DNA from: Naegleria gruberi
Taxonomy: Eukaryota
Assembly: GCA_000004985.1 (NCBI GenBank)
Contig: GG738862.1
Length of the DNA stretch: 64,000 bases
Strand: one strand, 5' to 3'
Each line of letters begins with the position of its first letter. Positions within the stretch are counted from its first letter, which is position 1. Positions 60-50,879 of this stretch are shown here, piece by piece. The notes beneath the pieces are model-generated. The model had not been told where the DNA came from. It was given only the letters and a program-made list of their open reading frames with translations, and did not search any database. The position numbers and the translations under genes were made by a program.

Positions 60-1919
60 ATGTATCAAAGGAAAGCATTGATAACTAACCAATCAATCCT
101 TAGTGTCAGTTTGCTGCTAGTTTGTTTACTGGCATTAAGTATTTTGCATGTTCCATCATCTGTTTTGTGTGCTTCCTCAAGTAGCTCATCAAGTAATGGA
201 ACTGTGAGAGAATGGCTCAATGACTTGAATGATCAAGCTGCTAATCTACAATCCTCTGCTTCAAGATTGCAAAAAGCTATTGCAATTTTGAGTATGGCCA
301 ACAATACAGCATCCATCATCAGCATGAGAAATGCCCAGCTAAAGAAGATTAATTCTGCACTTGACATGATTAATCAAGAAATTTCAATCTTTAAAATCAC
401 CTGCAGTAATAATGATGGTCCTGATTGTAGCATTCCAGTATGTGTATCAAAGTGTTTGAACTGCTCTGGACCTGGAAAGTGTGGTGTTTGTTCTGGTAAT
501 TTTGATGGAAGTGATTGCTCTGCATGTAAATCTGGATGGAGTAATTACAATAGCAATTGTACTGTTCCAATTTGTGATTCTAAATGTATTATTTGTCAAT
601 CACCTGGAAACTGTACCAATTGCTCTGGTAATTATGATGGTTCTGTATGTTCATCATGCAAATCAGGATGGAATGGTTCTAATTGTTCAACACCTATTTG
701 TGATTCTAAATGTGTAACTTGTCTCTCACCAGGAAACTGTACTAATTGCTCTGGTAATTGGACTGGATCTGCCTGTTCTATTCCTGTATGTGATTCCAAA
801 TGTTTGAATTGTTCAGCACCTAGTGTTTGTTCTCAATGTTCTGGTAATTGGGTTGGTTTAACTTGTTCAGTATGTCAGACAGGATGGACAGGAGCAACTT
901 GTTCAACACCAGTATGTGATTCCAAATGTACAACCTGTGCATCTCCTGGTGTTTGCTCAGTTTGTTCTGGTAATTGGCAAGGATCTACATGTTCCACATG
1001 TAAGACAGGATGGACAGGAGCAACTTGTTCAACACCAATTTGTGATTCCAAATGTACAACCTGTGCATCTCCTGGTCAGTGTTCTGTGTGTTCTGCTGGT
1101 TGGACAGGAGCAACTTGTTCAACACCAGTTTGTGATTCTAAATGTACAACATGTGCATCTCCTGGTCAGTGTTCTGTGTGTTCTTCTGGTTGGACAGGAG
1201 CAACTTGTTCAACACCAGTTTGTGATTCCAAATGTACAACATGTACATCTCCTGGTGTTTGCTCAGTTTGTTCTGGTAACTGGGATGGTCCTTCATGTTC
1301 TGTGTGTAAAACTAGTTGGACAGGTTCATCTTGCAATCTCGCTCTTGGTGATTTTGCAAACTCACCATTATTCTCCGCTAGTTATGGAGCTAGGTTGATC
1401 ACATCTATTTTGAGTGGCGTTATGAAGAAAACACCAACCAGACTCTATAGAGCCATGGCAACTTATGGTATGGGAATTGGTTATGGCTATCATCCTTACG
1501 CTTTCCATAATGCCTGCAATGGTTATTCTTCAACAGTTACAATTGTGAAAACATCAGCAGGGGCTGTATTTGGTGCCTATCTAAGCATTCCATGGGAAGA
1601 TTATAATGCTGGGGATACAACAACTCGTAAGACATTTTCAGATCCTAATGCATTTCTATTTAGTATGGTAACATCGAGCGGTGTGGAGAGATTTGTGAAA
1701 TTGGGTTATTCTGGAGCTGTTGGACAAACTGTTACATACAATTTTATAACACATCCATTGTTTGGAGCGTCGGATATTTATTTGGGACAAGGGATGAGCT
1801 ATCAGCCAGCACCTGATGCTTATTCGAAACCAGCAACTTTTCAACCTTTGGAACCTAACTGGAGTTATGGAACTACATATTCATTCACTGTTTCTGATTA
1901 TGAAGTGTATAGTATTTAA
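60..1919 (+). CDS. Secreted cysteine-rich repeat protein with a C-terminal TLDc domain (619 aa, single exon)
   Basis: ATG at 60 with a signal peptide, MYQRKALITNQSILSVSLLLVCLLALSILHVPSSVLCA. A short coiled-coil-like segment follows, then nine or more tandem ~30-38 aa modules, CDSKCTTCASPGQCSVCSxGWTGATCSTP, with CxxC and EGF/furin-like spacing. The C-terminal ~190 aa match the TLDc signature: YRAMATYGMGIGYGYHPYAFHNACNGYSSTVTIVKTSAGAVFGAYLSIPW and later DPNAFLFS. The ORF is uninterrupted for 1860 nt. Confidence 0.8.
   Translation: MYQRKALITNQSILSVSLLLVCLLALSILHVPSSVLCASSSSSSSNGTVREWLNDLNDQAANLQSSASRLQKAIAILSMANNTASIISMRNAQLKKINSALDMINQEISIFKITCSNNDGPDCSIPVCVSKCLNCSGPGKCGVCSGNFDGSDCSACKSGWSNYNSNCTVPICDSKCIICQSPGNCTNCSGNYDGSVCSSCKSGWNGSNCSTPICDSKCVTCLSPGNCTNCSGNWTGSACSIPVCDSKCLNCSAPSVCSQCSGNWVGLTCSVCQTGWTGATCSTPVCDSKCTTCASPGVCSVCSGNWQGSTCSTCKTGWTGATCSTPICDSKCTTCASPGQCSVCSAGWTGATCSTPVCDSKCTTCASPGQCSVCSSGWTGATCSTPVCDSKCTTCTSPGVCSVCSGNWDGPSCSVCKTSWTGSSCNLALGDFANSPLFSASYGARLITSILSGVMKKTPTRLYRAMATYGMGIGYGYHPYAFHNACNGYSSTVTIVKTSAGAVFGAYLSIPWEDYNAGDTTTRKTFSDPNAFLFSMVTSSGVERFVKLGYSGAVGQTVTYNFITHPLFGASDIYLGQGMSYQPAPDAYSKPATFQPLEPNWSYGTTYSFTVSDYEVYSI
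907..1290 (+). repeat. In-frame tandem DNA repeats (90-nt and 114-nt units, >90% identical) encoding the Cys-rich modules of the gene at 60-1919
   Basis: The string caacttgttcaacacc recurs at 1021, 1111 and 1201 with near-identical 90-nt units. A longer 114-nt variant unit starts near 907. Confidence 0.85.
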
Positions 1920-2098
1920 ATTCAAACAATAAAAGATTCTTCATGAGCCATTAAAATAATGTGATGAAATTCCAACTTGGAAATCTTGCTGATTTTCAAC
2001 TGCATTTATTTATTTTTGATGTGTTTCAAACGAAACGACATCACTTCTACCAAGTTTATTATTTATAAAACAATAATGATGTAAACTAACAAATCAAT

Positions 2099-2830
2099 TT
2101 ATTGAGACAAACATTGATTAATGGATGGACATTGAGATGGAAGAATAAAATTAGCATTATCCACCTTTTCAATCATGTCATAAAAAACTTGTTCTTGAGA
2201 AGCATTCGAAACTACAACATACGAGCTCAATAACCAACACTTATTGGAGGTCATTTGTGGTTCTCTGAATGTCCACATGGTTCCAGTGGATCCGTTTTGA
2301 GAAGAAACAACTTTCAATGCATCATAATTACCAATCTTTCCTTTTGTAATCTTTCCATTGGATGCTGGAATGCAAATTGAATTCCATTGATTGAAATCTG
2401 AAACCTTTCTACAAACACATTGACCATCTCTTAAACCATACAAAACAGTTACTGTAGAACTAATCTTGATATCCCAATTGGTGTAATTGAAAACAACTCC
2501 ATCAACTGTATAACTGATATCTTGTCTCATCTTTCCAGTATTGTAATCTGCTGAAACTTTAAAGTTTCCATCGTAATGTTGTAAAGTGTTATTGGACAAG
2601 ACAGCAATTTGATTGAAACTTCCTTTCAAAGAAAAGACATTTGGCAAACAACAAATATTTGAATCAGATGGAGCTCTCTTATTGAAAGCAGAACTTTCGA
2701 ATAATTGATTGAAAACAAACATTGGAGAAGCAGCGTGGCACATTGAAGCCATGGTTGCAACAACAAGTAAGAATGAAAGAATTGTTAGTTTCAACATTTT
2801 TTTTGGTATGAGAAATTGTAAGATATTCAA
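2099..2830 (-). CDS. Secreted hypothetical protein (~230-243 aa)
   Basis: ORF with an N-terminal hydrophobic signal, MLKLTILSFLLVVATMASMCHA. The true start may be the internal Met at about 2797. There are several Cys and N-glycosylation sequons, no recognisable catalytic motif, and a 732-nt open frame in an AT-rich background. Confidence 0.55.
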   Translation of the reverse strand: MNILQFLIPKKMLKLTILSFLLVVATMASMCHAASPMFVFNQLFESSAFNKRAPSDSNICCLPNVFSLKGSFNQIAVLSNNTLQHYDGNFKVSADYNTGKMRQDISYTVDGVVFNYTNWDIKISSTVTVLYGLRDGQCVCRKVSDFNQWNSICIPASNGKITKGKIGNYDALKVVSSQNGSTGTMWTFREPQMTSNKCWLLSSYVVVSNASQEQVFYDMIEKVDNANFILPSQCPSINQCLSQ

Positions 2831-5013: not shown

Positions 5014-5071
5014 AAGCGAGTAATGGCCTAAAATTGGTGTAAATTTCCAAAAACGTTTGGCTAATGGACTT

Positions 5072-8000
5072 TTATTTAAAAACAATTTTCTGATTGTTAA
5101 TTAAAACATTGTAAAGATGAGAAAGTTCAAAGAGACACGACTTGTCACGAATGTTAATAATTGTCCTCAAATATTTCACTGCATCCCTATTAAATATTCT
5201 ACACTTGTACAAGAGTGGAAGTCCTTCAAGAGATTCTCTTGAAATAAGTCCAAATTCATCAATAATTGATTGTTGGAATAATTCCTCTTCCTTAGAGTTT
5301 GGTGCATAGGGTTTTGGAGCTATTCCCAAGAATTTACAGAACTCATCTTGTTCTAATTGATTGGCAAAATAGAGAGATCCAGCAAATATGTGAATGTCAG
5401 TCAACAAGTTCAGTAATACCTTGTCAGCAATTTCAAAGTTATTATTTGGTACACTCCATGCTGGTTCATCAATCATGATACGAGAGGTAGGACTTGTTCG
5501 TGAGCAGAACATGAGTATACGAGTTGGTGAAAATTTGTCCAACTTTTGAATATAATGATTAGCCTCTTCTGGACTCAAAATGATAATTGTTTGTGAGTAT
5601 TCACTGTAGGCCAGCCAAGTGACGGGTTTGAAGAATGGACTATTCTTGGAAGCATTCGAAACAGTTTTGAGGTAATTGTCAGTGGCATAAATGTTGTGAT
5701 TCCAATTGATTGGAGAGGCCAATAGAGTTTCTTCCAAAGATTCAGATAATGGACGGGCTTTAAGTGGTTGAATGGAGACATCATATTCCTCTTGGAGAAT
5801 GCCCTTCTTCATGAATAACTCCAAGGTATCGTCAATTACAGTAGCTGCAGGATCACATTTTTGAGGTCTCTCTACAATTCTTTGCTCTTCCAATTCATTT
5901 TCCAATTCTCTTTCCTGTTCCTCGTTGAGTATTTGTGAAAAGATAGTTTTAGAGTGAGCTCTCTTATTAATATTTGCTCTAATTAATTCCAAAGAAGGAG
6001 AAATATCTATGGAAAAGAGTTTTGAAATGTGAAGGGCTCTCTTTTCAAAGATACTGAGAAGGTATTGTTCATATCTTTCCTGTCCATAAAAATCACTAAT
6101 TTTGAATAATTCATTTTCAGTGCACTGCTCTGCATATTCATCCATTTTAAGCTTGGCATCATATTCGGTTTTGGCAATTTTTTTAGAGTAGAAGAGCAAT
6201 CCACTAGTTGACCATTGTAGATAGTGATCATTTTCCATTTGTACTCTATTGTGAATGGACCATTTCAATATTCTTTCTTGGATTGTAAGCTGTTGTGAAA
6301 AATTGTCATTAATAAAACGATCAACTTCTTGACTTGCCCAGAAGGCAACAGAGTGTCCTTTTCCTAATAATCTCATTCTCATACAGGCTTGGCATAGTCT
6401 CTCAAATGTAAGACCATTACCCAGTGTTACGGCTGCTTTCATTCCAGTAGGGAATTTGAGATCTGTACCTCTTGTGTGAATATCATCAAGATAAATCAAA
6501 CATCTTTCCAATTTGTTCTTATAGGGAGATATTTCGAATGGAATTATCAAACCATTTCTATCCAAAACAACCAATTGATCTTGGGTGTTGAAAAATACAG
6601 CTGCATCTGCAACTTGTTCAGTCACAGAGTTTAACCAGTATTTGCAAAGATTCATATTACTCATTTCAAGCATGAGCGCTCCCACATCAATTAATACTCG
6701 TTGGTTATTAGCATTCAATTCAGATATAAAGTTAGTAATCTCTGCTTGTTTGACAACATGATATTCTTCATTCTCTTTAGAGAGGAGAATTTTCAATAAT
6801 TCTCCAGTAGTTCCCCTAAGGGAAGGAAGCTCATTTTCCTTAATGGTGATTGGCAAAAGGAATGCCTTCGTTCCAGAGAATCCACAAGTAGGGAATTTAC
6901 TTTCCTTACAAAGATTCCAAGCTGATGCTGAAATCTTTCTATCAAACTGTTTACATTCTCTTGAGAATACAGCTCGATTGAGGAAAAAGTCAATCACTGC
7001 CATGTTATTTCTTAAAGCTGGGTATAAAACTTGTGTCTTTTGAATAAAGTCTTCCAAGTTAATGCTCTTGTAATGTTTGATTGATTCGGGAATATTTTTC
7101 ATTTCATAGACCCATTTCTCATATTCCACATCGGGAGATTCTATTCTTTGAAGGAATTGGAAAACCACATCTAATTGTTCATTAGTCAATCCAGAATAAT
7201 AATAACTCAATAATGTTAAAAGAATTGCAATATCTGGATGCCCAAACTCGGCTCTATCAGAAGGGCAATCCTTAGCTCTGTAAGGAACAGCCACCAATCT
7301 CTTGATATTAGGATTGACTCCATAATTAACTCTCCATCTCTTATTGAGCGAGTGATACAATAATCCAAAAGCAAATATACCTCTCATTAATAAAATTTCC
7401 GATTTTAAAATATCATTTGACATGGTAGAAAGAATATCCAACTCAGTTTGTGAAATGGTTTCTGCTGTTAATATCTTCTTAATATTTTCTCGGTCGTTCA
7501 ATTTGTAAGGAATGAAAATTTCACTTGCCCTTCCTTCTAAAATATCATCTACAATTAAATCAACTAATTGATTGTAAGATGTCTTATCTAAAACTCTAAA
7601 ATAAGGGAAAGTATGAGAATCTCCTCTAGTAAAGAATTCAACATGTGAAGCGCCAAGTTTGTTGAATAAACTTTCAGCATGCTTTCTAACAATTCTCATA
7701 ATTTTTTGAGGTAATATCCATCTCAGATTTCCCATATCCAAATCTTTTTGTTCTCCCACAGTATAAATTAATTGATATCTAACATGAAGAATTTCATCAC
7801 TTTCATCGAGAATATCTCTGCAGTGTTTTTCGAAATAGTCTTGTAATCTCAAATAATCGTGAGCAATTGATTCCTTAGCAATTGCTTTTTCAATTCCTTT
7901 CAATTCAAATGACAATCTATATTCTGGAACAGTGATAAGAATGCTCCTTTCCTTTTCCATTACTTCCAATACACTTCTAATAGTCTTTAAATCTGTTGCA

Positions 8001-11000
8001 GTAATTTTCAAATCTCTGCTAAATGGTAGATAGATTACCTTTCTATTAAGAATTCCACCAAGTTTAAATGAAAGATATGTATAATTGGTCTGGAGTAATT
8101 GTTTTAGTACAGTCAATCGAGGAATTTGTGCTTCGTTAAATGCAAGGACTAACATTGGAATAATTACCGATGTTTTGCCTTCTCCCATATTGAATTGGAG
8201 AACCATGTTTGTACTTGAGGAAAGCATGTGATTTGCAACTTCATATTGTCTTGGTCTAATCATCAAATCGAGTTCAATTTCCAATAATAACCATTGGGGG
8301 AACTTTTTAGGGCTCCAATTAACATGTCCACTATTTTCAAGTTCTCTATCAAATTGTACCTTCTTATTTGGATCATTGTTCATAAGTTTCAATCTGTTGT
8401 ATCGTTGTTCCAAAGTTGTTAATACAGCAAGAGCTCCAATCAAGTCTTTACAACCACAATACTGTTCAGTATCTGATATCAAATCCTGGAATAACAGATA
8501 TGGGCATAAACGATTTGAAATTCCACATTCTGCTATTGCTGATTTTGCAGTATCGGAAAAATTAGAAAGTTTACATTCCAGAGCTTTCCAAATTTTTTCT
8601 TTCAATTCCAATATGACAGAAATATTAGGCAGTTGTGCTGAGGTTACTTGGTTTGGGTTATTGGCTGTCAAATAACTGCCCTCCAGGTCTAGAATGTACT
8701 CGTTGTAAAGAGGGTCATGAGAGTCATGTGAAAATAATTGAACATCATGCTCCAAGGTTTTGATTACATCCTTCTCACAATATGGTGATATGTCACCTTT
8801 TTCAAAAATGTATTTAGCCATTTCTGGAACATCAGCTAATCCAAAAACAAGCTTATTTCCATCTTCTTGTACCTTGGTAAAATTCTGAATATCAAATGTT
8901 TGATTTGTTTCGTTTGGCTGTAAATTCTCCATTGTAATGTTGACTATTGTTATGTCACCTTTAGCATTATTCATCATATTTTGGAGAACTGATTTAATAC
9001 CTTGTAAAAATTTTTGAACTCGTTCTCTATTGTAAAGTGTAGATAAATAGTTATTGATATGATCGACAGCTTCACTCTTATCAATAAAATTTAATCTTCC
9101 AAATTTGTTTTTCTCCATTAATTGCTCCTTATTGAATGCTATTTCAGCAAACCTTAGGCATGTTCTAATATCATTATTAAACGTTTCATGGTCATCCTCA
9201 TCATCAAATGTTAGTCTACTATTTGCCGCTTTCAATAAATTTATAACGTCATCTTCATCAAAATCAGTACATTCCAAATCATCAACACTTGAAAAAATTA
9301 AAGGTGAATGTTGATTTCTAAAAGAATTGGCAAATAAATTAATAATCATGAAACAAGCCAACATTTTCTTTTTTTCTGGGAATACATAACCGAGATAAGA
9401 TATGAAAACTTTGAAATCGGCAGGTGTTTGAGTTTTGGCTGCTTCATAGAGTGTGAGGAAATCATCTTCGAGGTCAATATTTTTCCAATCATACAGGAAG
9501 TTCTCCACTTTTTTTTCTGGATTGAACGAGGACACTGAATTGATAAGTTCAACTGCTGAAATTTTCTGAAAATTATTTTTTGAAATAGATGCCAAGTACT
9601 TGCAAGCAACATAGGATGTCATTGAAGAGATCTTGATTGTTTCAACATAATTGACATCTTTTTGAGAACTAATTCTTAAACGTACAATAGGATTGTAATA
9701 ATTAAGGTAGGCTTTGTAATACCTTCTTGCCAAGAAGAGAGGATCTTCCTCGTCACTCTTTTTAACACTACTGCCACTTTCCCCGTCTAGGAAAATTGTC
9801 TCCTCTGACTTTTTAACAATAGAGTCCACAATTAGTTTGTAAGCATCCAAAAGACATAAACTTGATAAATTTGTTTTAGGCCATGTTATCTTCTCATTGA
9901 CTTTCATTTTTGGTGGATGGAAGCTTCTGTCAGGAGAAATAGATGAAATGGCCTCTAGTAGAGAGGTTTCCAATTTTGAGAGAGGTCTCATTGGCCAACA
10001 TCTTGCAGATTTCAAAATTTTGAGAGCTGATTCATAACCTGTTAATTTTGTGAATGGATCGACTATTACAGAGCTGGTGATACCATGAAGAAGTGCCAAA
10101 AAAAGCCAGGACGATAAGCTATCATTAGCTTCTAATTGCCACATGTACTCATTAACAGAATAGGTGAAATAAGGAGTATCTATTGATTTAGTCATATCGA
10201 TACGTGTTAAATGGTGATGTTTGAATTTTTCTGTTGAAATTTCACCATTTGGTACAAGCACAATCTTTTTAGAAGAGTTTGGATTTTCGTCCTTCAGCAT
10301 TATGGCATTAGAAAGTCCAATTAATGTACCACAATAAAATGAATCGCAAACTATCATTGAAAACTCCTTTGATCGTAAATAGCTGTTGTTCACCAATTCA
10401 AAGTGAAGTCCCAAACGTGGAAGTTCCACTAACACTTCATCATTATTTGCAAATATATGAATATTATGTTTGAGTTCAATTCTTGAAATTGATTTCAATA
10501 CTTCTGTATACGTTTCTCCAAAATAATTCATGAGTACTCTTTCAGTACCAACTTCTTTCAATTTCTTTTCTGTGACATCGAGTTTGTAAGCAATGCTACT
10601 TTTAAATTTTGGAGAAAAGAAAGAAATAGGTCTGAAAAGCACACAATTAGTTGTAACATCATACCAATGACTGTAGTTTTCCACAAATTGAGCTGGAAGA
10701 TCATATTCAAAAATTTTGTGAGACAATAAAATAGATGTTTCAGAGCCATGCTTCAGAATGAATTGCATACTTTTTCTAAACTCCAGTTGACAGCCGTCAA
10801 TATCGTACGATGTCACAAAAGCATCTGGACGTGTGGCTTGTTGCACATCAAACACAAAATTACCAAACACTCTCTTATACTTTGCATCTGCTGTGATAGG
10901 ATCAGGAAGTCTTCCAATTGGATTTCCATTGACAAGGAATGTTCCTCTAACAATATTGAAGGCAATTGCTGTAAATCCCGAATCGGTAAGAAGTGCTGCC

Positions 11001-24044: not shown

Positions 24045-25190
24045 TTATTGAAGAGAAAAAACTTCATAATCTTCAATTTGGAAATATTGTGATCCTGTCA
24101 AGTATGATTGTGCGGTTGAACCTGGTGTCAATATTCCATCACCATAGCTGTGACCTAGATTAGCATAATTGTAATTATCTGCAATATGTAAATCATGTCC
24201 TGCTCCAAATGCTGGTCCATATTGAGGATTGTGATAAATTGAGTATTGAGAAGAGTTGTCTCCAATCTTGAAGTAATATCCATATTGTTGAGTCAATTTT
24301 GTAAATCTTTCAACTTTGTCAGCTGAAACTAAACTAAATAGAAATGCTGATTTGTCTGGAAAGAATGCTCCAGTAGTTGAGGTCCATGAAATACTTGTAT
24401 AACCTCCAAATACAGCACCTGTTTTTGCCTTGACAATTACAACGGTTGAACCTTTGTTATCACATTTCGAATGGAATGCTTGAGCTGAGAAACCATCTCT
24501 TGATGCCTTAAATATTAATTTGAGTCCATTTGGTGTTGGAATGCCATTCAATATTTCTGTTGCTAATCTTTCTGATTGTTTTTGAGATAATAGTGTTGAA
24601 TCTTTCAATCCACTTATTTTGGATTCGAGTTCTTTCTTTACTTGTTCTTCCTTATTCTTCTTTTCTTGTTCTTCTTTCAATTTCTTTTGATATTTGAGTT
24701 TCTTCTCTTGTTCTTCTTTCATCTTTGTTTCCAGTTCCTGCGAGGATTCAGATTTGAGCTGTTTGTTATCTTTGAGTTTATTCTTTTGGTTTTCTTTAGA
24801 TTTAGATTCATGTCTTTCATGTAATGGTCTTGTTTGATATAATAGTTCAAGATTTTCAATTTCAATTTCCAAAATAGATTTCAATTCATTCAATTCATTT
24901 CTTGTTGTTGATTTATCAGATGTGTAAGATTTAAACAAAGATGATTTCTTTCCACTCACTTCAAATGCATCCAATAAAATGTTAATTTCCTTCAATGCAT
25001 TTGATGTGTCTTTCAAATATTGCTTTTTATCTTTCAATACTTTGAACACATCTCTTGTTGAATATGTTGATGATGAAGAATTGTTGCTTGTTCCTTTACT
25101 AAGTAATGTTACTGTTGATGATTGTGCATGTGTAGCCATTACTAATGCACTCATCAATATTATTAAGGCAAATAAACAACAACGCAACAC
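24045..25190 (-). CDS. Secreted coiled-coil TLDc-domain protein (381 aa)
   Basis: Signal peptide MLRCCLFALIILMSALVMATHA. K/E-rich coiled coil (KEEQEKKLKYQKKLKEEQEKKNKEEQVKKELESK). TLDc core LIFKASRDGFSAQAFHSKCDNKGSTVVIVKAKTGAVFGGYTSISW ... DKSAFLFSL ... GAGHDLHI. Confidence 0.8.
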   Translation of the reverse strand: MLRCCLFALIILMSALVMATHAQSSTVTLLSKGTSNNSSSSTYSTRDVFKVLKDKKQYLKDTSNALKEINILLDAFEVSGKKSSLFKSYTSDKSTTRNELNELKSILEIEIENLELLYQTRPLHERHESKSKENQKNKLKDNKQLKSESSQELETKMKEEQEKKLKYQKKLKEEQEKKNKEEQVKKELESKISGLKDSTLLSQKQSERLATEILNGIPTPNGLKLIFKASRDGFSAQAFHSKCDNKGSTVVIVKAKTGAVFGGYTSISWTSTTGAFFPDKSAFLFSLVSADKVERFTKLTQQYGYYFKIGDNSSQYSIYHNPQYGPAFGAGHDLHIADNYNYANLGHSYGDGILTPGSTAQSYLTGSQYFQIEDYEVFSLQ

Positions 25191-25635
25191 AATTGTGACG
25201 ATTGTTGGTACAGATATTACTGTTAATCTGTTTCATTCAACAGATCCACAACTATTAAATGTTGGTTATCTTTTTGTGGGCCTGAAAATAGAAGTACAAC
25301 ACAATATGGTAATTGAATGTGATTACAACTATTACAATTGGACAATTAAAGAAATATTGAAAGTTCAATAATAATTATCACAGTTACTCCATTAAAAGGA
25401 CAATTAACTTGACTCTCATCCAATTTTTAACCATACCAGTGATATTTAAATAATCTTAAATAACCCATTCTGGGCCCAAAATGATATTTACTTTTAAAGA
25501 AACTTTACTTTGTAAATTTGGAAGTTTGACAAAAAAGATATGTAATTTGTTTGGAGAAACACTTGCTTTGGGTTATTCAAAAAACACTATAAAACACCAC
25601 CTATTCACACCTTACTTGAAACAATCGAAAAAGAA

Positions 25636-28261: not shown

Positions 28262-29410
28262 AATGTATCAATATAAAGCATTGCTTAGTGTCACTTTGCT
28301 GATAGTTTGTTTACTGGCATTAAGTATTTTGCATGTTCCATCATCTGTTTTGTGTGCTTCCTCAAGTAGCTCATCAAGTAATGGAACTGTGAGAGAATGG
28401 CTGAGTGACTTGAATGATCAAGCTGCTAACTTACAATCCTCTGCTTCTAGATTGCAAAAAGCTATTGCAATTTTGAGTATGGCCAACAATACAGCATCCA
28501 TCATCAGCATGAGGAGTGCTCAACTCAAGAAGATTAATTATGCTCTTGACATGATTAATCAAGAAATTTCAATCTTTAAAACCACATGCAGTAATAATGA
28601 TGGTCCTGATTGTACCATTCCTATATGTGTATCAAAGTGTTTGAATTGTACTGCACCTGGCATATGCTCACAATGTTATGGCAATTGGAATGGTACTGAC
28701 TGTTCCTATTGTAAGATGGGATGGAAAGGCATTGATTGTAACACTTCTCAATGTGATTCAAAGTGTTTGATATGCACTGGACCCTCTCAATGTTCAGTTT
28801 GTTCTGGTAACTGGGATGGTGCTAACTGTACTACTTGTAAGGCAGGATGGGCAGGAACTAATTGTGCTACCCAAGTTCCTGTGGGAGATTTATCATCTTC
28901 TTCCATATTGACACCAGTTAATGCCACAAGATTTGTTTCTGAAATAGTTAATAGTGTAAGATCCAAACCAATTACACTATTGTATAGATCTTCAAGAGAT
29001 AGTTATAATCCTTCAATCTTCCATAGTTTATGTGATAATAAGGGGCCAACTATTACAATTGTTAAGGCTAATACGGGAGCCATATTTGGAGGTTATACTT
29101 CAATTAGTTGGAATTCAGGTGGTGTCAATTTTATAGTGACCCAAATGCTTTCTTATTTAGTATTATTTCTTCAACAGGAGAGCAAAGATTTACAAAGATA
29201 CTCCAACAACCACCATACGCCTATAGTATTTATACATCTTACCACCATTTCCCTGTATTTGGTGCCGGGAATGATCTTTATATTGGCACAAGTTATTGCA
29301 GCACTACCCCTTCCTCATACATATATCAATCCAGAGCTTATTTCGCTTGTCTCCCAAATGTTAATTGTGATACTTGGGTTCTTTCAGATTTCGAGGTTTA
29401 CTCGTTGTAA
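28262..29410 (+). pseudogene. Truncated paralogue of the 60-1919 Cys-repeat/TLDc gene with a 1-nt frameshift inside the TLDc region (pseudogene or assembly indel)
   Basis: The first ~420 nt, 5' flank included, are ~95% identical to 60-480. Only about three Cys-rich modules remain. The reading frame breaks at about 29129-29132 in a T-run (...ISWNSGGVNF then SDPNAFLFSIISSTGEQRFTK continues in the +2 frame). The ORF-track pieces are 28200-29420 and 29108-29410. Confidence 0.6.
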
Positions 29411-39563: not shown

Positions 39564-39616
39564 ACTTTTAATCGCTTTCACTGCTGCTTGAATTGTCTTG
39601 CTTAGAGCTTAGAAAC

Positions 39617-42600
39617 TTAATTGCCTTGTTTGGTGAATTCCATGTAACCCAATCTTTTTCCTTGTGAATTGAATGGAAAGGAGTTCTTTTTTGAACTATC
39701 GTGTTCGTAAAGTGTAGAATCTGAAAAGTTAGCAGTAAATTTCTTTGTTCCGACTGTAAGTTCCATATATCTTGGATACCTGTCTCTATGGTACTTTCGT
39801 TTTCCTCTCAGCAACTTGGCGCTTGTTTTGGCGTCGAAAATTATAAACTCCTTTCCCGAATTATAAACTGTGACCTTATATTTTGAAGCTTTCTTTTGCT
39901 TAAATGGAGCGTAGGCATGTTCAAGGAAATTATTCTTTGTAGGATTGAAAGAGCCAATATGTTGTTGTCCTGGATCTATTTGAATGAATTCAATTTGTGG
40001 AGAGAGGTTACTATTCATCTTTTTTGGTCTCAGAATTTCCTGAATGTCATTAAGGGAGTACTCAAAGAATGTTGATAATTTGAGGTTATTGGTAATGTAT
40101 TTTACACGTTGATCTATTTTTCTAAATCCCTCACTTGCAGTGTCATATGCAAAAGTAATGTCCACTTGTGAATAGTCATGCTTCTTTGATGGTTCTGTTA
40201 GTGATAAATCTCTTTCTGTACTCTCTATTGTTCTTCTTCCTTTAATCGACACAAGAGCGTCAAATTCGTGAAGTTTTTTAAACGAGTTGATAATCATTAA
40301 AATTCTTGCAAGACCATTAAATTGAGTGATGGTTGGCTTTAGATCACCTAATAAAATAGGATTTACCACCTTCTTAATATCGTAGCCACAAATACCTATC
40401 CTAAACCCTCTCATTGCATACTTTATCAATCTAGTTTCAAAAGTTGTTGATTGTCTATCCACATCCACAATATTACATCTAGTTCTTATTGCTTCTCTAG
40501 CTCTTGGTACGCAAAATACTTGATTTCCATCAAAACCAATGCTGCAACAGGCAATATCAAATCCCATCAACACTTCAGCCTTTTGTTTATCAAAAGATTT
40601 GTAAATTCTCAAAATTACTTAAACTTACTGGTGATTTGTAAATTCTCAATACTATTTGTACAGATTTTTTGTGATATCCTGAACATTTGAAGGTGATAGC
40701 ATGTTGTGTTCTGATAATTAGTAATTCTCCATCCTTAGTATTTTTCTTGAAAGTGTTAAAAATACTAACAATCTTCTTTTCAGCATCTGTTTCTGAAAGA
40801 CCATACAAAAATAAATCAATATCACTCTTTCTCCAAGGCTTATTTTGGAAATACTGTCTAATGGTATATTCTTCTGATGAAGTATTTTGACTCGGGCTAA
40901 ATTTAGTATGCATATCATTTTCTTCATCTGTCACGTAATCATCATCTGATGAATCATTAGTATTTGGAGCTTCTCCATCACTTGCATCGTTATTACCCCA
41001 AAATTTGGAAAGACTTTTTTGTTGTTTCCATAGCTCAGTATTATATAACCTGCCACGTGAAAATTGTGTATCGCTACGAACTTTAACTTTCAAACAGGAA
41101 GCTAAAACTGATCCTCCAGCCACAAAAACATTAGACCAATCCATCTCCTTAAATATTCCATCTGTGAAAATGTCAAATTGTTTCAGAAATTGTTCTCTTG
41201 ACTCTACAAGTTCAGGAGGTGTAGGAATTGTTAAGGATGACTTTTTGGCTAGCTCAAAAGCTTCACAAGGATCCTCAAAGTTGAAAAGTAACTTGCTTGG
41301 TTCCAAAACTGGATCTTTGCACCTGAAAGATTTCCTAATACTGTTGCTAGATCCAAAAATATTAATCAAGTTGATATATGGATCATTGAGGATTACATTT
41401 TCTCTATCAGCAACAAATAAATTTCTCAAAAAGTCCTCATATCTTTTGTATTTCAAATTCTTTTCTCCGATTTCTTCTATTGGATATCTACAAATATCAA
41501 AATATTCTAGAATACCGTTCAATCTGAAATATTTAGCCTCACTATAGACTTGTTTCTTTGTTTCTGTTAGAGTTGGGAAATTATCAATCTTTCCATTCAA
41601 AAGATATTCATGAATAAATTTGAAAATTTCTGGATCTCTATCAATAAATATTTCGATTCAATTTGGTAGAATTCTTTACAATGGTATAGAGCAAACTGTC
41701 AGGTTCTCTCAAAAGCTTGGATTTGGTTAAACTAAACTTGACTCCTCTAACATTGAAAGTGATATCCGTCATGTTCTTGGACATTTCCATTTCTTTCAAG
41801 TCTTCGAATTCCCTGGTTAGTTTTTCTTTTTGGTCCTTGATATATTTCTCAACTTTTTCCTTTTCTTCAAGAGTGATCATGGCAAACTTGGAATAAAATT
41901 CCTCATCCAAAGCTTCGTCGACCAGAGAAGAAGAAACTACTTCGGGTACTTCATCTGGAATATAGATATTCTTTCGTTCTCTAACCTCATTCTTGTAAAT
42001 ATCTATAAGTGATTTTAACTTGATAGTGAGTTTATCAAGCGCAAAAAAGTCTGATTCCTCCAAAAGCTTTTTCAAACGTTTGATATTCCTCTTACTTGCA
42101 TCCTCCCAAATACCAATATGAGTGGTTGAACCAGTTCTCAAGTGTTCCAAAATTATTGGAAAATATTCAGGATCTCTATCAATTAAAATACACCCATTCT
42201 CATCCTTATCGACTCCAAACTGAGATTCCAACATGACACGAAGCATATTATCCCTCTTACACAAAGTAGACATTGTGCTTACAAAAATCTTCCCTCTCAA
42301 ATTAAGTTTCACAATATTTTCCTCTTGTTGGGACAATTCAAATTCTTGTAAAACTTGTTTTCCATGAACATCCATCTCTGCAACCTCTTCTCCATCATCT
42401 CCACCAGAAAAACGCTCCACAAGCAATTCAACTTCCTTCTTCTTCATCTCATTCCGCTTCACTTCATCCTTCAACTCGATCAAACTCTCAACTCTAAATC
42501 TTTCCAAAGCCCGACGTTCCTTCCAAATATTTCTCTTACTTTCCATCTCCTTATCATCAAGAACACGAACATTTTTTTGATCATCATCATCACCCGAAGG

Positions 42601-42669
42601 CTGATTATTATTTTCCTTTCCGTGATGATCTTTTAGAGTTTCGTTTTTACGCTTCTTTGATTGCGGCAT
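39617..42669 (-). CDS. Tandem BTB/T1-domain protein with an N-terminal charged coiled coil and a large C-terminal domain of unknown function (about 1000 aa). It has one 49-nt intron and one apparent 1-nt frameshift.
   Basis: BTB#1: IVKLNLRGKIFVSTMSTL...ILIDRDPEYFPIILEHLRTGS. BTB#2: ITFNVRGVKFSLTKSKLLREPDSLLYTIV... then, after a frame slip near 41645-41655, IFIDRDPEIFKFIHEYLLNGKI. Intron on the minus strand at plus 40580-40628 (gtaagtttaag...aaacaaaag) joins ...VLRIYKSP to AEVLMGFDIACCSIGFDGNQ. The C-terminal region carries FVAGGSVLAS, DIDLFLYG and GFDIACCSIGFDG motifs. Confidence 0.55.
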
Positions 42670-42894
42670 TTTTTTTAATGTTTTTTTGCCAGTTTTGAAA
42701 GGAAATTTATAGATTTTACAATGAGATCAAAGATCATGAAAATTGAGTTGTTGACTTCTAGCGGAAAATTGAAGATTGAAAATATTATTGAATAAGACAC
42801 TTTACAAAAATTGGATAAAAATGGAAATTTGATAAGAGATGGACGAAACCCTTTGAAATTTCAAAAATCAATTTTCCTAAACATCAACAAAAAA

Positions 42895-44457: not shown

Positions 44458-44492
44458 TAAATGTCAAGGTCAATCATTTCACCTGCAGACAA

Positions 44493-47477
44493 ATGACGTT
44501 TTTAACATCACAAAAAAACATGTCTCTGCATCACCTAATCTTGGTTGCTTTGCTCATCTCAGCACAATTTGTTTGCTTTTCACAACAGCAAGCAACCATG
44601 GCGCCAAGTGTCAGCCACATGCTTCTTGCTGGCGGAAACACACCTTTCGGCTATTATGGAAATACGAAAGGTCTCACTCCTTCTTCCATCTTGTGTGGTC
44701 AAGATGATTTCATCTACAGTGTGGACACAAGCGTTGCTGGTATCAAAATAGCCAAATTACTACCTAGCGGCGTTATTTCCTCTTCTTTTGGCACTGACCA
44801 TAGCTCAGCCACAGGAAGAACACTGGGAATGGCTTCGTATCCTGATGGCTCTGCTGCTGGAAAGTATTTTGTCTATGAATTGGATCCTGTAACCAAAATC
44901 CTAACCAAGAATTCAGTGAGTTTGAATGCTAATGGACCTGTTGGAACTATTCCAATGGCTGCAGAGGTGATAAGTGATCCAAGTGGATTGGCTGTCACAT
45001 CAAATGGTGATTTACTATTTTCAGATAGTAAGGCGAATGTTATTCGAAGAATTAACATGACAGCACCTGGATTGGATGGAAATTACACAACAACAATTGT
45101 TGCTGGAGTTGTTGGAGCATCTGGATATGGTGGAGAATCTGTTGTGGCCACAGGAGCAATTTTATCTTCACCAACAGGAATAACTGTATTTGGAAATGCT
45201 TTTTATTTTGCTGAAACTTCTCTTAATATTATTCGAAAGGTTGACATGCAAACTGGATTATTGACAACTGTTGCTGGAATACAAGGTCAAAGTGGTGATA
45301 GTGGAGAGGGTTATTTGGCCACATCAGCATTTCTGAATGGTCCTCAATCAGTTGCCTTTAATAGCAATGGTGATATGTTCATTTCTGACTCAAAAAATAA
45401 CAAAATCAAAAAGGTGTTTTTCAATAATGGAACTATTATCACAATTGCTGGAACTGGAAGTGCTAATTTTACTGGAGATGGATCAAATGCCAAGTTTGCA
45501 ACTTTGAATTTGCCAACATTTATTTCAGTTTCCAATTCAACTGGTGACATTTATATTATTGATTCTCAAAATTACAGAATTAGAAAGATTACTGCAAGTA
45601 CCAATGTTATTTCCACATTTCTAGGCAATGGACTTTCGAGAAATTACGGTGAAAATATTTCAGCTGGTGCAGCTTCTTTCAATTCCCCAGTTGGTTTCAC
45701 ATTTTCTTTGGCTTATCCTAATAATGTGATTTATGTTGCTGATACAGGAAATCATAGAATTAGATCATTCTCTCAATTCTATTCTGGCAGAAATATTGTA
45801 ACTGTGGCAGGTTTACCGAGACCTGGACTTGGAGGTGAGAATTTGCCTGCCTTATCAAGTTCTTTCAATTTTCCATCTAATTTGGTGTTTCATCCAATTT
45901 CAGGAGATTTACTAATAGTCGATACCCAAAATCATAGAATTAGAAGTATGAGCAAGAGTACATCCTTCGTTAAAACAATTGCTGGAACTGGAATAGCAGG
46001 TTACAATGGAGAGGGTATGCTTTCGAATATGACCAAAATGAACTCACCATCTGGCATTGCAGTCCTAAGTACTGGTGAGATTATCTTTGCAGATACATTC
46101 AACAATTTGGTAAGAATGATTAATTTGCAAGGTATCGTTTCAATATTTAGTTCTAATGTTTCTGCACCTGTTGGTATTGCTGTCAATTCAAAAGATGAAA
46201 TTTATATTGGTGATAGTGGTAATCAAAGAGTATTACGCTGTACCAAACAAGGAGTTTGTGTTACATTTGCTGGTACAAAGGGAGTTAAGGGTTATTATCC
46301 AAGCAGTTCCAAAGTTGCTGTTCCAGTTTCTCAAGTTTTATTCACTCAACCAACTTACATTGCACCTAATAATGCAGGAGATGTTTATGTGGTGGATAGT
46401 GGAAATGGAAGAATTGTTAAAATTGCAAGAGATGGAAAAGCTGCTAATGTTTTGAATAATTTGGTCAATCCAGGAAATATTGCATTCAATGAATATGAAC
46501 AAAGTCCAATCTTTATCAGTTCTGATATAGTTCATGAGTTAAAGTCCACATGTAACTCCAATTATGTGCTCTCCATTTATGATTATGAATGTAATTTGAT
46601 AACATGTTCTGGAGTTGCCTTGACAAACAGTTCTGTATGCTCCTCGCACGGAGTTTGTGCCTCAATGGACACATGTATCTGCAACACGGATGATACCTAT
46701 TTTGGAAAGAATTGTGAGTTTAAACTATGTAATGGAGCTCAAATTTCATCCACTCAACCATGTGTAGCTCAACAATCACCATCCACAAAGGAAATCAAAG
46801 TTGAAACAATTTTAATCTCTTCATTGAATGCAAAGAATGTTACTTTTGACAAGTTTGAAACCATTCAAGTAACCTTCCCTTCTTCAATCGTTTCTCAATT
46901 GAATAGCACAGGTTCAGTTTCAGGCAATCTCAACATTGACCTCGTCAGTTCAGTTGTAAATCAAACTTTGGACAATTCACTCAATAGCTTATCAGAAAAC
47001 AATACAATTTTCCTAGTGAGCTCCATTGTGACAATTTCACTATTTGACAGAGACACTGGAAAGGAAATTTCAGTCAAGCAACTCAGTGAACCAATCAATA
47101 TTCAAATGAAATCCATCTCTGTTCCGAATTCCCTCCTTGAAAACCGTGAATTCTCCTTTGTGTGCATGTACCTAGACATTTCCTCCAACACTTGGAAAAC
47201 CGATGGTGTTGAAACCATTATTCAAAACTTACAAAACACCACAGAAACATTGACCTTCTCCACCCTATGCAGAACCACACACTTGACCAGTTTCGCAGTC
47301 ATTGATCCAACCTATAAAAAAGCCTCAAAATCTGATTCAAACAATAGCAATCTCCTCGATCTTGGCACCATCATTGGAATTGCTGTAGGAGGTGGTGCAG
47401 GTCTCTTAATTGTTTGCACCATGATGGTTCTCGCCATTGTTGTATTGGTTGTTTGCTGTGTGAAAAAGAGAAAGTAA
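44493..47477 (+). CDS. Type I membrane protein with an NHL-repeat beta-propeller ectodomain, EGF-like Cys module(s) and a single TM helix (994 aa), no kinase
   Basis: Signal peptide (MSLHHLILVALLISAQFVCFS). Twelve or more NHL-type repeats (...VADTGNHRIRSF..., ...IVDTQNHRIRSM..., ...YIGDSGNQRVLR...). EGF-like CSSHGVCASMDTCICNTDDTYFGKNCEFKLC. C-terminal TM IIGIAVGGGAGLLIVCTMMVLAIVVLVVCC followed by KKRK and the stop. Confidence 0.8.
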   Translation: MTFLTSQKNMSLHHLILVALLISAQFVCFSQQQATMAPSVSHMLLAGGNTPFGYYGNTKGLTPSSILCGQDDFIYSVDTSVAGIKIAKLLPSGVISSSFGTDHSSATGRTLGMASYPDGSAAGKYFVYELDPVTKILTKNSVSLNANGPVGTIPMAAEVISDPSGLAVTSNGDLLFSDSKANVIRRINMTAPGLDGNYTTTIVAGVVGASGYGGESVVATGAILSSPTGITVFGNAFYFAETSLNIIRKVDMQTGLLTTVAGIQGQSGDSGEGYLATSAFLNGPQSVAFNSNGDMFISDSKNNKIKKVFFNNGTIITIAGTGSANFTGDGSNAKFATLNLPTFISVSNSTGDIYIIDSQNYRIRKITASTNVISTFLGNGLSRNYGENISAGAASFNSPVGFTFSLAYPNNVIYVADTGNHRIRSFSQFYSGRNIVTVAGLPRPGLGGENLPALSSSFNFPSNLVFHPISGDLLIVDTQNHRIRSMSKSTSFVKTIAGTGIAGYNGEGMLSNMTKMNSPSGIAVLSTGEIIFADTFNNLVRMINLQGIVSIFSSNVSAPVGIAVNSKDEIYIGDSGNQRVLRCTKQGVCVTFAGTKGVKGYYPSSSKVAVPVSQVLFTQPTYIAPNNAGDVYVVDSGNGRIVKIARDGKAANVLNNLVNPGNIAFNEYEQSPIFISSDIVHELKSTCNSNYVLSIYDYECNLITCSGVALTNSSVCSSHGVCASMDTCICNTDDTYFGKNCEFKLCNGAQISSTQPCVAQQSPSTKEIKVETILISSLNAKNVTFDKFETIQVTFPSSIVSQLNSTGSVSGNLNIDLVSSVVNQTLDNSLNSLSENNTIFLVSSIVTISLFDRDTGKEISVKQLSEPINIQMKSISVPNSLLENREFSFVCMYLDISSNTWKTDGVETIIQNLQNTTETLTFSTLCRTTHLTSFAVIDPTYKKASKSDSNNSNLLDLGTIIGIAVGGGAGLLIVCTMMVLAIVVLVVCCVKKRK

Positions 47478-50219: not shown

Positions 50220-50258
50220 ATTTTAAAAACAAATAAATTAAAAATTAATCATTAAAAA

Positions 50259-50879
50259 ATGAGTGAAGAAATCATCGTGATCTTGAAACTGGATCATCAC
50301 ATCGGATCTGGAGTTTTAACTAATTTTTATAGGACCACTGCCAAGTTAGAGAGTAAACTAATCAACTATTCACAATATCTTTCATTATTCAAAGGTGAAT
50401 TAAAGATCCACACACGTCCAAGATTATTATTCAGATCGAGCAGGGATGGATTTTCTCTTTCTGATTTTCATTCACGATGTGATAATCAATTCAAACTTGT
50501 AATTATTGTAAAATCACAAGAGGGTGATTTATTTGGAGGATACACAACTAAGAATATCAATACAATGCCAAAATCTACATATGACTCTGTGGGGGATAAT
50601 GATTCATTTACTTTTCAATTTGATGAAGAAAAATTGCATATTTTCAGATTGTTGCCTTCGAGGTTGGAAACTGCCTTGCATCGATATGAGTTAACTTATC
50701 TTTTTGCCTTTTCTTGGAGTTTCTGGATTTGTGAAGATGCCAATACTAAAATATCTGGTTCACATGAGTCAACAACTGAAAATATACTTCCAGAATGTAG
50801 ATTACCAGTTGGAAAAAAGTATTTTGGTGGATTGACTTTTCGTGTTGAGGATATGGAAGTTTTCAAGATTGAGGAATAG
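50259..50879 (+). CDS. Cytosolic TLDc-domain protein (206 aa, no signal peptide)
   Basis: LLFRSSRDGFSLSDFHSRCDNQFKLVIIVKSQEGDLFGGYTTKN... This is the TLDc core. It lacks the N-terminal hydrophobic segment of the other three TLDc genes. Confidence 0.75.
   Translation: MSEEIIVILKLDHHIGSGVLTNFYRTTAKLESKLINYSQYLSLFKGELKIHTRPRLLFRSSRDGFSLSDFHSRCDNQFKLVIIVKSQEGDLFGGYTTKNINTMPKSTYDSVGDNDSFTFQFDEEKLHIFRLLPSRLETALHRYELTYLFAFSWSFWICEDANTKISGSHESTTENILPECRLPVGKKYFGGLTFRVEDMEVFKIEE

What the first reader, a model, noticed from the sequence alone, without database searches (positions are those of the whole stretch)
60..50879. Family of four TLDc-domain genes, three with signal peptides: secreted TLDc fused to Cys-rich EGF/furin-like arrays or coiled coils
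TLDc domains (OXR1, NCOA7, TBC1D24, MEAK7 lineages) are, as far as is established, intracellular oxidative-stress and v-ATPase-associated modules. This 51-kb stretch holds four TLDc genes: 60-1919, 24045-25190, 28262-29410 and 50259-50879. Three begin with unambiguous cleavable-signal-like hydrophobic N-termini. One of those carries nine or more extracellular-type Cys-rich modules with N-glycosylation sequons ahead of the TLDc. A secreted or surface TLDc subfamily that is locally amplified would be an unusual topology and a lineage-specific expansion worth characterising. It might be a surface-antigen-like or redox-sensing ectodomain.
Basis: partly seen in the sequence, partly recalled or inferred. 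Interest (0 to 1): 0.65.

Follow-up and report, generated by a model that had tools for sequence, protein, structure and literature searches.

The report
Secreted stalk proteins with TLDc heads
This stretch of the amoeba Naegleria gruberi holds four genes with a TLDc domain, and three of them belong to a Naegleria-only family of apparently secreted proteins that carries TLDc, so far known only inside cells, in the position where sister proteins carry classical extracellular binding domains.

Summary

The signal-peptide claim holds fully only for g1.
- g3 has the same leader, but its TLDc is broken by a 1-nt frameshift.
- g2's hydrophobic leader has no in-frame ATG. A 97.6%-identical environmental ortholog has 14 more bases there and a clean ATG-started leader.
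- g4 is an ordinary small cytosolic-type TLDc of another lineage.

The four are not recent tandem copies: their TLDc domains are 22-40% identical.

The main result is that g1, g2 and g3 share an N-terminal module: hydrophobic leader, heptad leucine-zipper stalk, a conserved N-x-S/T site, and usually Cys-rich EGF-like repeats. Among 1.84 billion representative proteins this module occurs only in N. gruberi and close environmental relatives. There it carries three alternative C-terminal heads: TLDc, fibrinogen-C or ConA-like Laminin_G_3.

Most likely these are oligomeric secreted or surface binding proteins with TLDc as one head. Signal cleavage, secretion and ligand are inferred. No paper I found describes secretory TLDc.

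The parts
60..1919 (+). g1: intact 619-aa gene with leader, leucine-zipper stalk, eight Cys-rich modules and a C-terminal TLDc. No exact protein is on record in the public collection.
   Evidence: ORF and translation; Pfam TLD 38 bits; no exact record.
60..176 (+). g1 signal-like leader, aa 1-39: n-region MYQRKALITNQ (+2), hydrophobic core ILSVSLLLVCLLALSILHV, then PSSVLCAS and poly-Ser.
   Evidence: Hydropathy maximum 3.12 (10-aa window) at aa 19, and no other hydrophobic segment in the protein. Heuristic n/h/c parse. SignalP was not available.
189..428 (+). g1 stalk module, aa 44-123: a heptad Leu zipper (R-x5-L-x6-L-x6-L-x6-L), a loop with a positionally conserved N-x-T sequon, a second helix, and a C-x5-G-x-D-C end.
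   Evidence: Invariant R7, L13, L20, L27 and L34 in alignment A3. Heptad score reached by 0 of 200 shuffles. 12-member alignment.
441..1355 (+). g1 array of eight CDSKC-type Cys-rich (CxxC, EGF-like) modules, aa 128-432. The underlying DNA is tandem repeats of 126 nt (76-80% matches) and 90 nt (96% matches).
   Evidence: Module parse; TRF; self-megablast; Pfam EGF_TEN 30-33 bits, below the cut-off of 65.
1329..1916 (+). g1 TLDc domain, aa 424-619. It is divergent: the SRDGFS motif is replaced.
24045..25190 (-). g2: ORF with a hydrophobic leader but no in-frame ATG, then the Leu-zipper stalk, a K/E-rich charged segment and a TLDc. It has no Cys-rich modules. Annotated as XP_002678470, starting at M18.
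25128..25236 (-). g2 5' lesion. The ATG at 25236-25234 lies 46 nt upstream of the leader ORF's first codon (25190), so it is out of frame. The environmental ortholog L001 has +10 and +4 nt here, which puts the same ATG in frame and gives MKQINSNICKKMCQQSSQLFVLRCCLFALIILMSALAMATHA|QSS.
   Evidence: Sequence; DNA alignment; L001 ORF of 401 aa. The leader segment differs by 3 synonymous and 1 non-synonymous changes.
24048..24635 (-). g2 TLDc domain, aa 186-381.
   Evidence: Pfam 97.8 bits; domain envelope; phmmer hit to mEAK7 chain 7u8o_U.
28263..29410 (+). g3: leader and stalk (5' 377 nt 94% identical to g1), two Cys-rich modules and a TLDc interrupted by a frameshift. Annotated as XP_002678372, which reads through the shift.
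29129..29132 (+). T4 run where one base is missing relative to an intact reading frame. Adding one T gives a 382-aa protein with a full TLDc.
   Evidence: Frame analysis; repair and translation; Pfam TLD 71.7 bits after repair. No GT..AG interval of suitable length and phase exists.
50259..50879 (+). g4: 206-aa stand-alone TLDc with no hydrophobic N-terminus. It belongs to a different TLDc subfamily, whose paralogs are XP_002668740, XP_002669048, XP_002675560 and the unlooked-up N. gruberi protein P0139.
   Evidence: It is 21-28% identical to the N. gruberi stalk-family TLDc domains, the three in the window and those of P0003, P0123 and P0121.

Best explanation
g1, g2 and g3 belong to a Naegleria gruberi-specific family of secretory-pathway proteins built as stalk plus head. 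The proposed steps are:
1. An N-terminal signal peptide, or an uncleaved signal anchor, takes the chain into the ER. This is inferred.
2. A conserved module of about 80 aa follows: a four-heptad leucine zipper, a loop with a conserved N-x-S/T site, a second helix and a Cys pair. It oligomerises the chains. The heptad pattern is shown; oligomerisation is inferred.
3. A variable spacer sets the reach. It has 0 to 8 CxxC/EGF-like modules that expand by tandem duplication, and in g2 a K/E-rich helix takes its place. This is shown.
4. A C-terminal globular head does the binding. The head is TLDc in these genes, and fibrinogen-C or ConA-like Laminin_G_3 in paralogs. The head swap is shown; the binding role and the ligand are inferred from the design shared with tenascin, angiopoietin, ficolin and collectin.

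TLDc would therefore sit outside the cytosol, where it cannot reach the V1 sector of the V-ATPase. There it would act as a multivalent recognition or adhesion head, for example for prey surfaces, substrate or cyst material.

In this reference genome only g1 is intact. g2 has lost the in-frame start of its leader, and g3 has a 1-nt frameshift. g4 is an unrelated, ordinary cytosolic-type TLDc that happens to lie nearby.
For: - TLDc identity: Pfam; the family profile hits ten solved TLDc sequences; fold match for g1.
- Leader: a single N-terminal hydrophobic segment with a charged n-region and a small or polar tail in g1, g3, P0003, P0123, P0125 and the L001 ortholog of g2.
- Stalk: invariant R and four Leu at 7-residue spacing in six sequences, g2 included. 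The heptad score is reached by 0-2 of 200 shuffles.
- A positionally conserved N-x-S/T sequon sits in the stalk loop of 11 of 12 members.
- Head swap: a profile of the stalk searched against 1.84 billion representatives gives 13 hits. Ten are N. gruberi proteins, the P0143 cluster contains one, and P0143 and P0145 come from environmental contigs. Their heads are TLDc (P0122, P0003, P0123, P0001, P0140), Fibrinogen_C (P0125, P0142, P0146) or Laminin_G_3 (P0141, P0144, P0147).
- Module shuffling: the g1 and g3 5' ends are 94% identical in DNA, while their TLDc domains are 33% identical in protein.
- Repeat expansion: 90-nt units at 96% matches, and 8 modules in g1 against 6 in P0121.
- The g2 leader is ancestral and was coding: the ortholog L001 has an in-frame ATG, and dN/dS is 0.38 overall.
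- Outside Naegleria, TLDc also sits at the C-terminus of collagen, EGF, Ig or signal-plus-cathepsin architectures.
Against: - No signal-peptide predictor could be run. The hydrophobic cores are long (14-27 aa), so a type II anchor is as possible as a cleaved signal.
- There are no expression, proteomic or binding data. No paper mentions these loci.
- The oligomeric state is unknown, and the only full-length model attempted failed (pLDDT 39).
- Two of the three secretory-type copies in the window carry disabling lesions, so the local genes may be decaying.
- Pfam does not confirm the EGF assignment.
- Sequon counts are not enriched.
- The binding-head role rests on analogy only. Every characterised TLDc binds the cytosolic V-ATPase (PMC8608904).
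Confidence: 0.6

Rival explanations
1. The proteins are type II membrane proteins. The long hydrophobic N-terminus is an uncleaved signal anchor, so the stalk, the repeats and the TLDc form a cell-surface ectodomain that acts as a receptor or adhesin, and nothing is released in soluble form.
For: The hydrophobic cores are 19-27 residues long in g1, g3, P0003 and g2/L001, which is nearer to transmembrane length than to a typical signal h-region. The n-regions are positively charged (positive-inside rule, general knowledge).
Against: A proline and a run of small residues (PSSVLCASSSS, VVGSSSS) follow the core, as in a cleavable c-region. P0123 has a 14-residue core. Neither feature is decisive.
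Confidence: 0.25
2. The window copies are largely dead or changing role. g3 is a pseudogene. g2, having lost its leader's start codon, is either a pseudogene or is now made from M13 or M18 as a cytosolic protein of coiled coil plus TLDc, which could act on the V-ATPase like other TLDc proteins.
For: There is a 1-nt frameshift in g3. g2 has a 14-nt deficit relative to its ortholog, which leaves the ATG out of frame. The NCBI model starts at M18. g2 keeps the RDGFS, FGGY and FGAGHD motifs that correspond to NCOA7 residues needed for V-ATPase binding (PMC8608904).
Against: The g3 lesion lies in a homopolymer and could be an assembly error. g2 compared with its ortholog shows dN/dS of 0.38, and the leader has 3 synonymous and 1 non-synonymous changes, which suggests recent constraint. 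g1 is intact.
Confidence: 0.35
3. The g2 hydrophobic segment is not coding at all. It lies in a short 5' intron, from GTAAT at 25220 to TTAG at about 25147. Splicing would give MKQIN(I/T)MATHAQ... in both the window and L001.
For: The proposed splice would be in frame in both sequences, and the 10-nt and 4-nt indels would then lie inside the intron.
Against: The segment is an open frame that closely resembles the leaders of the paralogs. It is in frame with the ATG in L001. Three of its four substitutions are synonymous. There is no transcript evidence either way.
Confidence: 0.08
4. One reading: a surface-antigen-like or redox-sensing TLDc ectodomain amplified locally.
For: The Cys-rich CxxC repeat arrays vary in copy number, as in protist surface antigens. 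TLDc has a historical link with oxidative stress (PMC8608904).
Against: The family is small, and its TLDc domains are old and divergent (22-52% identity). No conserved Cys or redox motif is seen in the TLDc heads. The head-swap partners are the lectin-type FReD and LamG domains.
Confidence: 0.07

Closest known systems
TLDc-domain proteins (OXR1/Oxr1p, NCOA7, TBC1D24/Skywalker, mEAK7/TLDC1, TLDC2, Rtc5p)
   Different: Every characterised member is cytosolic and binds the V1 sector of the V-ATPase (PMC8608904 and the other papers listed). Here the TLDc follows a secretory leader, a coiled-coil stalk and disulfide-type repeats, so it is predicted to face the lumen or the outside. g1 and g3 have lost the DG-x-S motif.
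Tenascin, angiopoietin, ficolin and collectin-type oligomeric secreted proteins (signal, coiled-coil or collagen stalk, EGF repeats, C-terminal recognition head)
   Same: The same order of parts. N. gruberi paralogs on the identical stalk carry a fibrinogen-C head (P0125, P0142, P0146) or a ConA-like LamG head (P0141, P0144, P0147).
   Different: The stalk has no detectable homology outside N. gruberi. The head in the window genes is TLDc. Oligomerisation and ligand binding are untested.
Teneurin/tenascin-type EGF and furin-like CxxC repeats
   Same: Cys-rich units of 30-45 aa with a C-x2-C...G-W-x-G-x2-C pattern, and a weak Pfam EGF_TEN hit.
   Different: Scores of 30-33 bits are far below the cut-off of 65. 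The CxxC spacing differs from the canonical CxC of EGF.
Other TLDc proteins with extracellular-type partners in public databases (coral EGF_CA-TLDc and collagen-Ig-TLDc; signal-cathepsin L-TLDc; Anaeromyxobacter collagen-TLDc)
   Same: The TLDc sits at the C-terminus after secretory-type modules or a signal-like leader.
   Different: The stalks and lineages are unrelated. None appears in the papers searched.

Membership tests
TLDc domain (Pfam PF07534) | HMM score above the Pfam gathering threshold of 24.5 bits | tested here: met
   g1 38 bits, g2 97.8, g3 48.9 (71.7 after frame repair), g4 63.8.
TLDc domain (Pfam PF07534) | TLDc fold: a beta-sandwich flanked by helices | tested here: met
   [not shown]
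TLDc domain (Pfam PF07534) | Conserved residues needed for NCOA7-V-ATPase binding (equivalents of G815, S817, G845, G896, E938) | tested here: inconclusive
   By motif alignment, g2 and g4 keep RDGFS, FGGY and E-V. g2 also keeps the FGAGHD glycine motif, whereas g4 reads FAFSWS there. g3 has RDSYN (G to S, S to N). g1 has an insertion in place of RDGFS, FGAY for FGGY, and FGAS-D. The residue mapping is by motif and not by structure superposition.
TLDc proteins as V-ATPase regulators | Cytosolic location and binding to V1 | not testable with these tools
   The predicted topology of g1 and g3 argues against access to V1. There is no experimental data.
Secretory proteins with a cleavable signal peptide | n-, h- and c-regions with a (-3,-1) cleavage site, as called by a trained predictor | tested here: inconclusive
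   A heuristic parse finds all three regions in g1, g3 and L001-g2, and they are conserved across 12 family members. SignalP and DeepTMHMM were not available, so signal anchor against cleaved signal is unresolved. g2 in the window lacks an in-frame ATG.
Stalk-plus-head oligomeric proteins (tenascin/ficolin-like design) | Oligomerising coiled coil N-terminal to the head | tested here: inconclusive
   Heptad periodicity is significant against shuffles, and four invariant Leu lie at spacing 7. The oligomeric state was not testable, and the single-sequence AF2 run failed.
Stalk-plus-head oligomeric proteins (tenascin/ficolin-like design) | Fibrinogen-related (or other lectin-type) C-terminal head | tested here: not met
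   The window genes carry TLDc instead. Paralogs on the same stalk do carry Fibrinogen_C (24.9-27.5 bits, cut-off 22) or Laminin_G_3 (60.8-81.7 bits, cut-off 27.6). The resemblance is therefore one of design and not of membership.
EGF-like domains (Pfam EGF_TEN and related models) | HMM score above the gathering threshold | tested here: not met
   g1 scores 30.4-33.2 bits against a cut-off of 65. The modules are best described as CxxC Cys-rich, EGF-like repeats.

The most novel reading that the evidence does not exclude
TLDc may be a general ligand-binding beta-sandwich and not a dedicated V-ATPase module. On this reading, N. gruberi (and independently corals, some protists and a myxobacterium) use it outside the cell as a recognition head. 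N. gruberi would then have built its own collectin/ficolin-like repertoire of soluble or surface receptors by swapping TLDc, fibrinogen-related and ConA-like heads on a private leucine-zipper stalk, perhaps to recognise prey or substrate.
Probability: 0.35. Interest if true: 0.65.

Novelty: new variant of a known kind. Interest (0 to 1): 0.5.

Why it matters
All functional work on TLDc proteins (OXR1, NCOA7, TBC1D24, mEAK7, Rtc5p) now converges on binding the cytosolic V1 sector of the V-ATPase. A TLDc that sits behind a secretory leader, on the same stalk that elsewhere carries fibrinogen-related or ConA-like lectin domains, cannot work that way. That would imply the fold has a V-ATPase-independent binding capacity.

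The family also gives a compact natural experiment in domain shuffling. It has one private stalk, three heads, spacers that vary in copy number, and a 94%-identical 5' module shared by genes whose heads are 33% identical. It is a candidate non-animal analogue of soluble pattern-recognition proteins. Recombinant heads would be easy to test.

Tried and rejected
- Exact-protein look-ups for g1, P0121 and P0001 found no record. So there is no independent copy of g1 or g3 to check the frameshift.
- Single-sequence AlphaFold of P0003 was useless (pLDDT 39).
- The afdb50 fold library was not available.
- One literature query was badly designed: min_terms 3 did not force 'TLDc', and the results were irrelevant. 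Searches for TLDc with Naegleria, and for the locus tags, found nothing. Naegleria secretome papers concern N. fowleri and were not mined.
- Sequon enrichment as evidence for secretion was rejected, because it is not above shuffles.
- Rescuing g3 by an intron was rejected. The only GT..AG intervals are 13-18 nt long and in the wrong phase.
- g4 as the last exon of the upstream fatty-acid desaturase ORF, which ends 40 nt before it, was rejected. Paralogs and an environmental ortholog are stand-alone proteins of 207-232 aa.
- The heptad test on g2 alone was not significant. Its stalk homology rests on the alignment and on the profile hit to P0001, E 6.9e-24.


Full report
**Source and setting.** The window is gene-dense, about 34% G+C. 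g2's translation is 100% identical to the NCBI 'predicted protein [Naegleria gruberi]' XP_002678470, on a 502-kb scaffold. This is therefore eukaryotic nuclear DNA, and GTG or TTG ORF starts from the bacterial-code ORF lister are not valid starts. Pfam annotation of 30 neighbouring ORFs shows unrelated genes. Among them are a 3075-aa DUF3638/DUF3645 protein, BTB_2 with pentapeptide repeats, an NmrA-like protein, actin, an ADH, a VWA protein, a multicopper oxidase, NHL/EGF/kinase ORFs and a fatty-acid desaturase. There is no operon-like or island-like context.

**The observation.** tblastn with TLDc queries finds exactly four TLDc loci. All four exceed Pfam's TLD cut-off. g1 is the weakest, at 38 bits with a partial profile match. 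I modelled its C-terminal 196 aa with a 75-sequence alignment, giving pLDDT 80.6 and pTM 0.82.
- Foldseek returns only TLDc structures in the top 15.
- The family profile hits ten solved TLDc sequences.

The TLDc claim is confirmed.

**Gene integrity.**
- g1 (60-1919) is an intact ATG-started ORF.
- g3 starts at ATG 28263. Its 5' 377 nt are 94% identical to g1. The TLDc changes frame at a T4 run (29129-29132). Adding one T gives a 382-aa protein with a complete TLDc, 71.7 bits. No plausible intron restores the frame. The GenBank model XP_002678372 reads on in the wrong frame.
- g2's listed ORF begins with GTG. Upstream in frame there is a stop, and the nearest ATG (25236-25234) lies 46 nt upstream of the ORF's first codon (25190), so it is out of frame. 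From M13 or M18 the hydrophobic segment is lost, and GenBank starts the protein at M18.
- An environmental contig, ENA ERZ929261 (L001), carries the g2 ortholog next to the same NmrA-like neighbour. It is 97.6% identical in DNA. It has 10 + 4 extra bases between that ATG and the hydrophobic segment. This gives a 401-aa ORF that begins MKQINSNICKKMCQQSSQLFVLRCCLFALIILMSALAMATHA|QSS.
- Between the two g2 sequences the leader has 3 synonymous and 1 non-synonymous differences, and the whole gene has dN/dS 0.38.

The g2 leader is therefore ancestral and was coding, but in this reference genome it is disconnected from a start codon. A rival reading, that the segment is a short intron, fits the indels but not the open, paralog-like, mostly synonymous sequence. 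I give it about 8%.

g4 (50259-50879) has no hydrophobic N-terminus. Its relatives are stand-alone TLDc proteins of 207-232 aa.

**Relationships.** TLDc identities are as follows:

| Pair | Identity |
|---|---|
| g1-P0121 | 96% |
| g2-P0003 | 52% |
| g3-P0123 | 44% |
| g1 against g2 and g3 | 32-33% |
| g2-g3 | 40% |
| g4 against the other N. gruberi TLDc domains | 21-28% |

The four are old paralogs of two lineages and not a recent tandem amplification. Even so, four TLDc genes in 51 kb is far more than chance would give. This is a rough inference. g1 and g3 are mosaics, with a near-identical 5' module and divergent heads.

**Anatomy of the secretory-type members.**
- g1's only hydrophobic segment is N-terminal: n-region MYQRKALITNQ, a core of about 20 aa, then PSSVLCASSSS.
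- After the leader comes a conserved module of about 80 aa. An alignment of six sequences, g2 included, has invariant R7, L13, L20, L27 and L34, which is a four-heptad leucine zipper.
- The heptad score is reached by 0-2 of 200 shuffles in g1, g3, P0003, P0123 and P0125.
- A 12-member alignment shows a positionally conserved N-x-S/T in the loop, present in 11 of 12 members. It also shows a second helix, R..QL.K...A...L..EI, and an ending C-x5-G-x-D-C.
- g1 then has eight CDSKC modules. They are encoded by 126-nt and 90-nt tandem repeats, the latter 96% identical. g3 and P0003 have two modules and P0123 has one. g2 has a K/E-rich segment instead.
- Pfam does not validate these modules as EGF: 30-33 bits against a cut-off of 65.
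- Raw sequon counts are not enriched.

**The key result.** I searched a profile of the stalk against 1.84 billion representative proteins and got 13 hits. Ten are N. gruberi proteins, the P0143 cluster contains one, and P0143 and P0145 come from environmental contigs. On this one leader-plus-stalk (plus EGF-like) scaffold the C-terminal domain varies:
- TLDc: g1, g2, g3, XP_002680281, XP_002672177 and XP_002670338.
- Fibrinogen_C: XP_002672788, XP_002672422 and XP_002683287. XP_002674556 qualifies by motif only.
- Laminin_G_3, the ConA-like lectin/glucanase superfamily: XP_002669727, XP_002680352 and XP_002671397.

Fibrinogen-related and LamG/ConA-like domains are classical extracellular binding modules (general knowledge). 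Their interchangeability with TLDc on a secretory stalk is the strongest available argument on two points: that these TLDc domains are extracellular or lumenal, and that they act as binding heads.

**Wider context.** Among 120 TLDc homologs of g2, about six non-Naegleria proteins have signal- or anchor-like N-termini. One example is P0028, with a signal, a cathepsin propeptide, Peptidase_C1 and TLDc. Others are fused to EGF, collagen or Ig domains and come from corals and Anaeromyxobacter. Secretory-type TLDc is thus scattered across public sequence data.

The literature I could search treats TLDc only as a cytosolic V-ATPase partner. PMC8608904 is an example, and the other titles are listed. 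Searches for 'TLDc' with 'signal peptide', with 'Naegleria', or for the locus tags gave nothing relevant.

**Mechanism and confidence.**
- Shown: the domain identities, the head swap, the heptad pattern, the repeat expansion, the lesions in g2 and g3, and the intact ortholog of g2.
- Inferred: ER entry and cleavage, oligomerisation, and a binding function.

I put about 0.85 on TLDc being outside the cytosol in g1-type proteins. I put about 0.6 on the full model of an oligomeric secreted or surface binding protein. The rivals are a type II surface anchor (0.25, compatible with most of the model), decay or re-targeting of g2 and g3 (0.35, not exclusive), the g2 intron reading (0.08), and surface antigen or redox sensor (0.07).

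**Verdict.** The interpretation improves when reframed as a Naegleria-specific stalk family with swappable heads. This is a new variant of a known domain's use and is moderately interesting. It can be tested with a signal-peptide predictor, reads or transcripts, and simple binding assays.

Noticed in passing
window 62935-63322, with an N gap at 63324-63373: An array of about 65 copies of GGTTTG (that is, TTTGGG/GGGTTT; 96% matches) runs straight into an assembly gap. The surrounding 4 kb is unusually A+T-rich (G+C 0.28) with a GC skew of +0.28. It could be an interstitial telomere-like or satellite repeat.
   Followed up: partly
window 60-1919 and 50259-50879: Neither g1 nor g4 has an exact protein in the public collection, although both are clean ATG-to-stop ORFs with close paralogs. 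They appear to be unannotated or differently modelled in the GenBank record.
   Followed up: partly
P0121 (XP_002668896, 59,947-bp scaffold) against window 60-1919: A near-identical copy of g1: the TLDc is 96% identical, it has 6 Cys-rich modules instead of 8, and the modelled N-terminus is unrelated and has no signal. It may be an allele or haplotig, or a very recent duplicate with a mis-modelled 5' end. The locus could not be fetched.
   Followed up: partly
window 5072-14299 (-): A single 3075-aa ORF with DUF6606, DUF3638 and DUF3645 domains. It is a giant protein of unknown function.
   Followed up: no
window 15191-17629 (-) and 41641-42669 (-): A BTB_2 (KCTD-type) protein with pentapeptide repeats, and a second BTB_2 protein. 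In other organisms BTB_2, pentapeptide repeats and B-box are common fusion partners of this same TLDc subfamily, for example P0066 and P0011-P0013. A B-box/NHL gene lies at 37346-39187.
   Followed up: no
window 44493-47477 (+) and 51157-56010 (+): NHL-repeat (teneurin-like) ORFs. One carries a GPS motif. Another is followed by ORFs with teneurin-type EGF domains (EGF_2 at 50.9 bits is above its cut-off) and a protein kinase domain. These may be exons of one receptor-kinase gene.
   Followed up: no
window 30310-31113 (+): A partial actin ORF of 267 aa that matches Pfam Actin positions 109-409 only. The first third is missing from the ORF, so it is either an intron-containing gene or a truncated copy.
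   Followed up: no
window 2099-2830 (-): A 243-aa ORF with a signal-like N-terminus (MLKLTILSFLLVVATMASMCHAASP) and no Pfam match, lying just downstream of g1.
   Followed up: no
[not shown]
   Followed up: no
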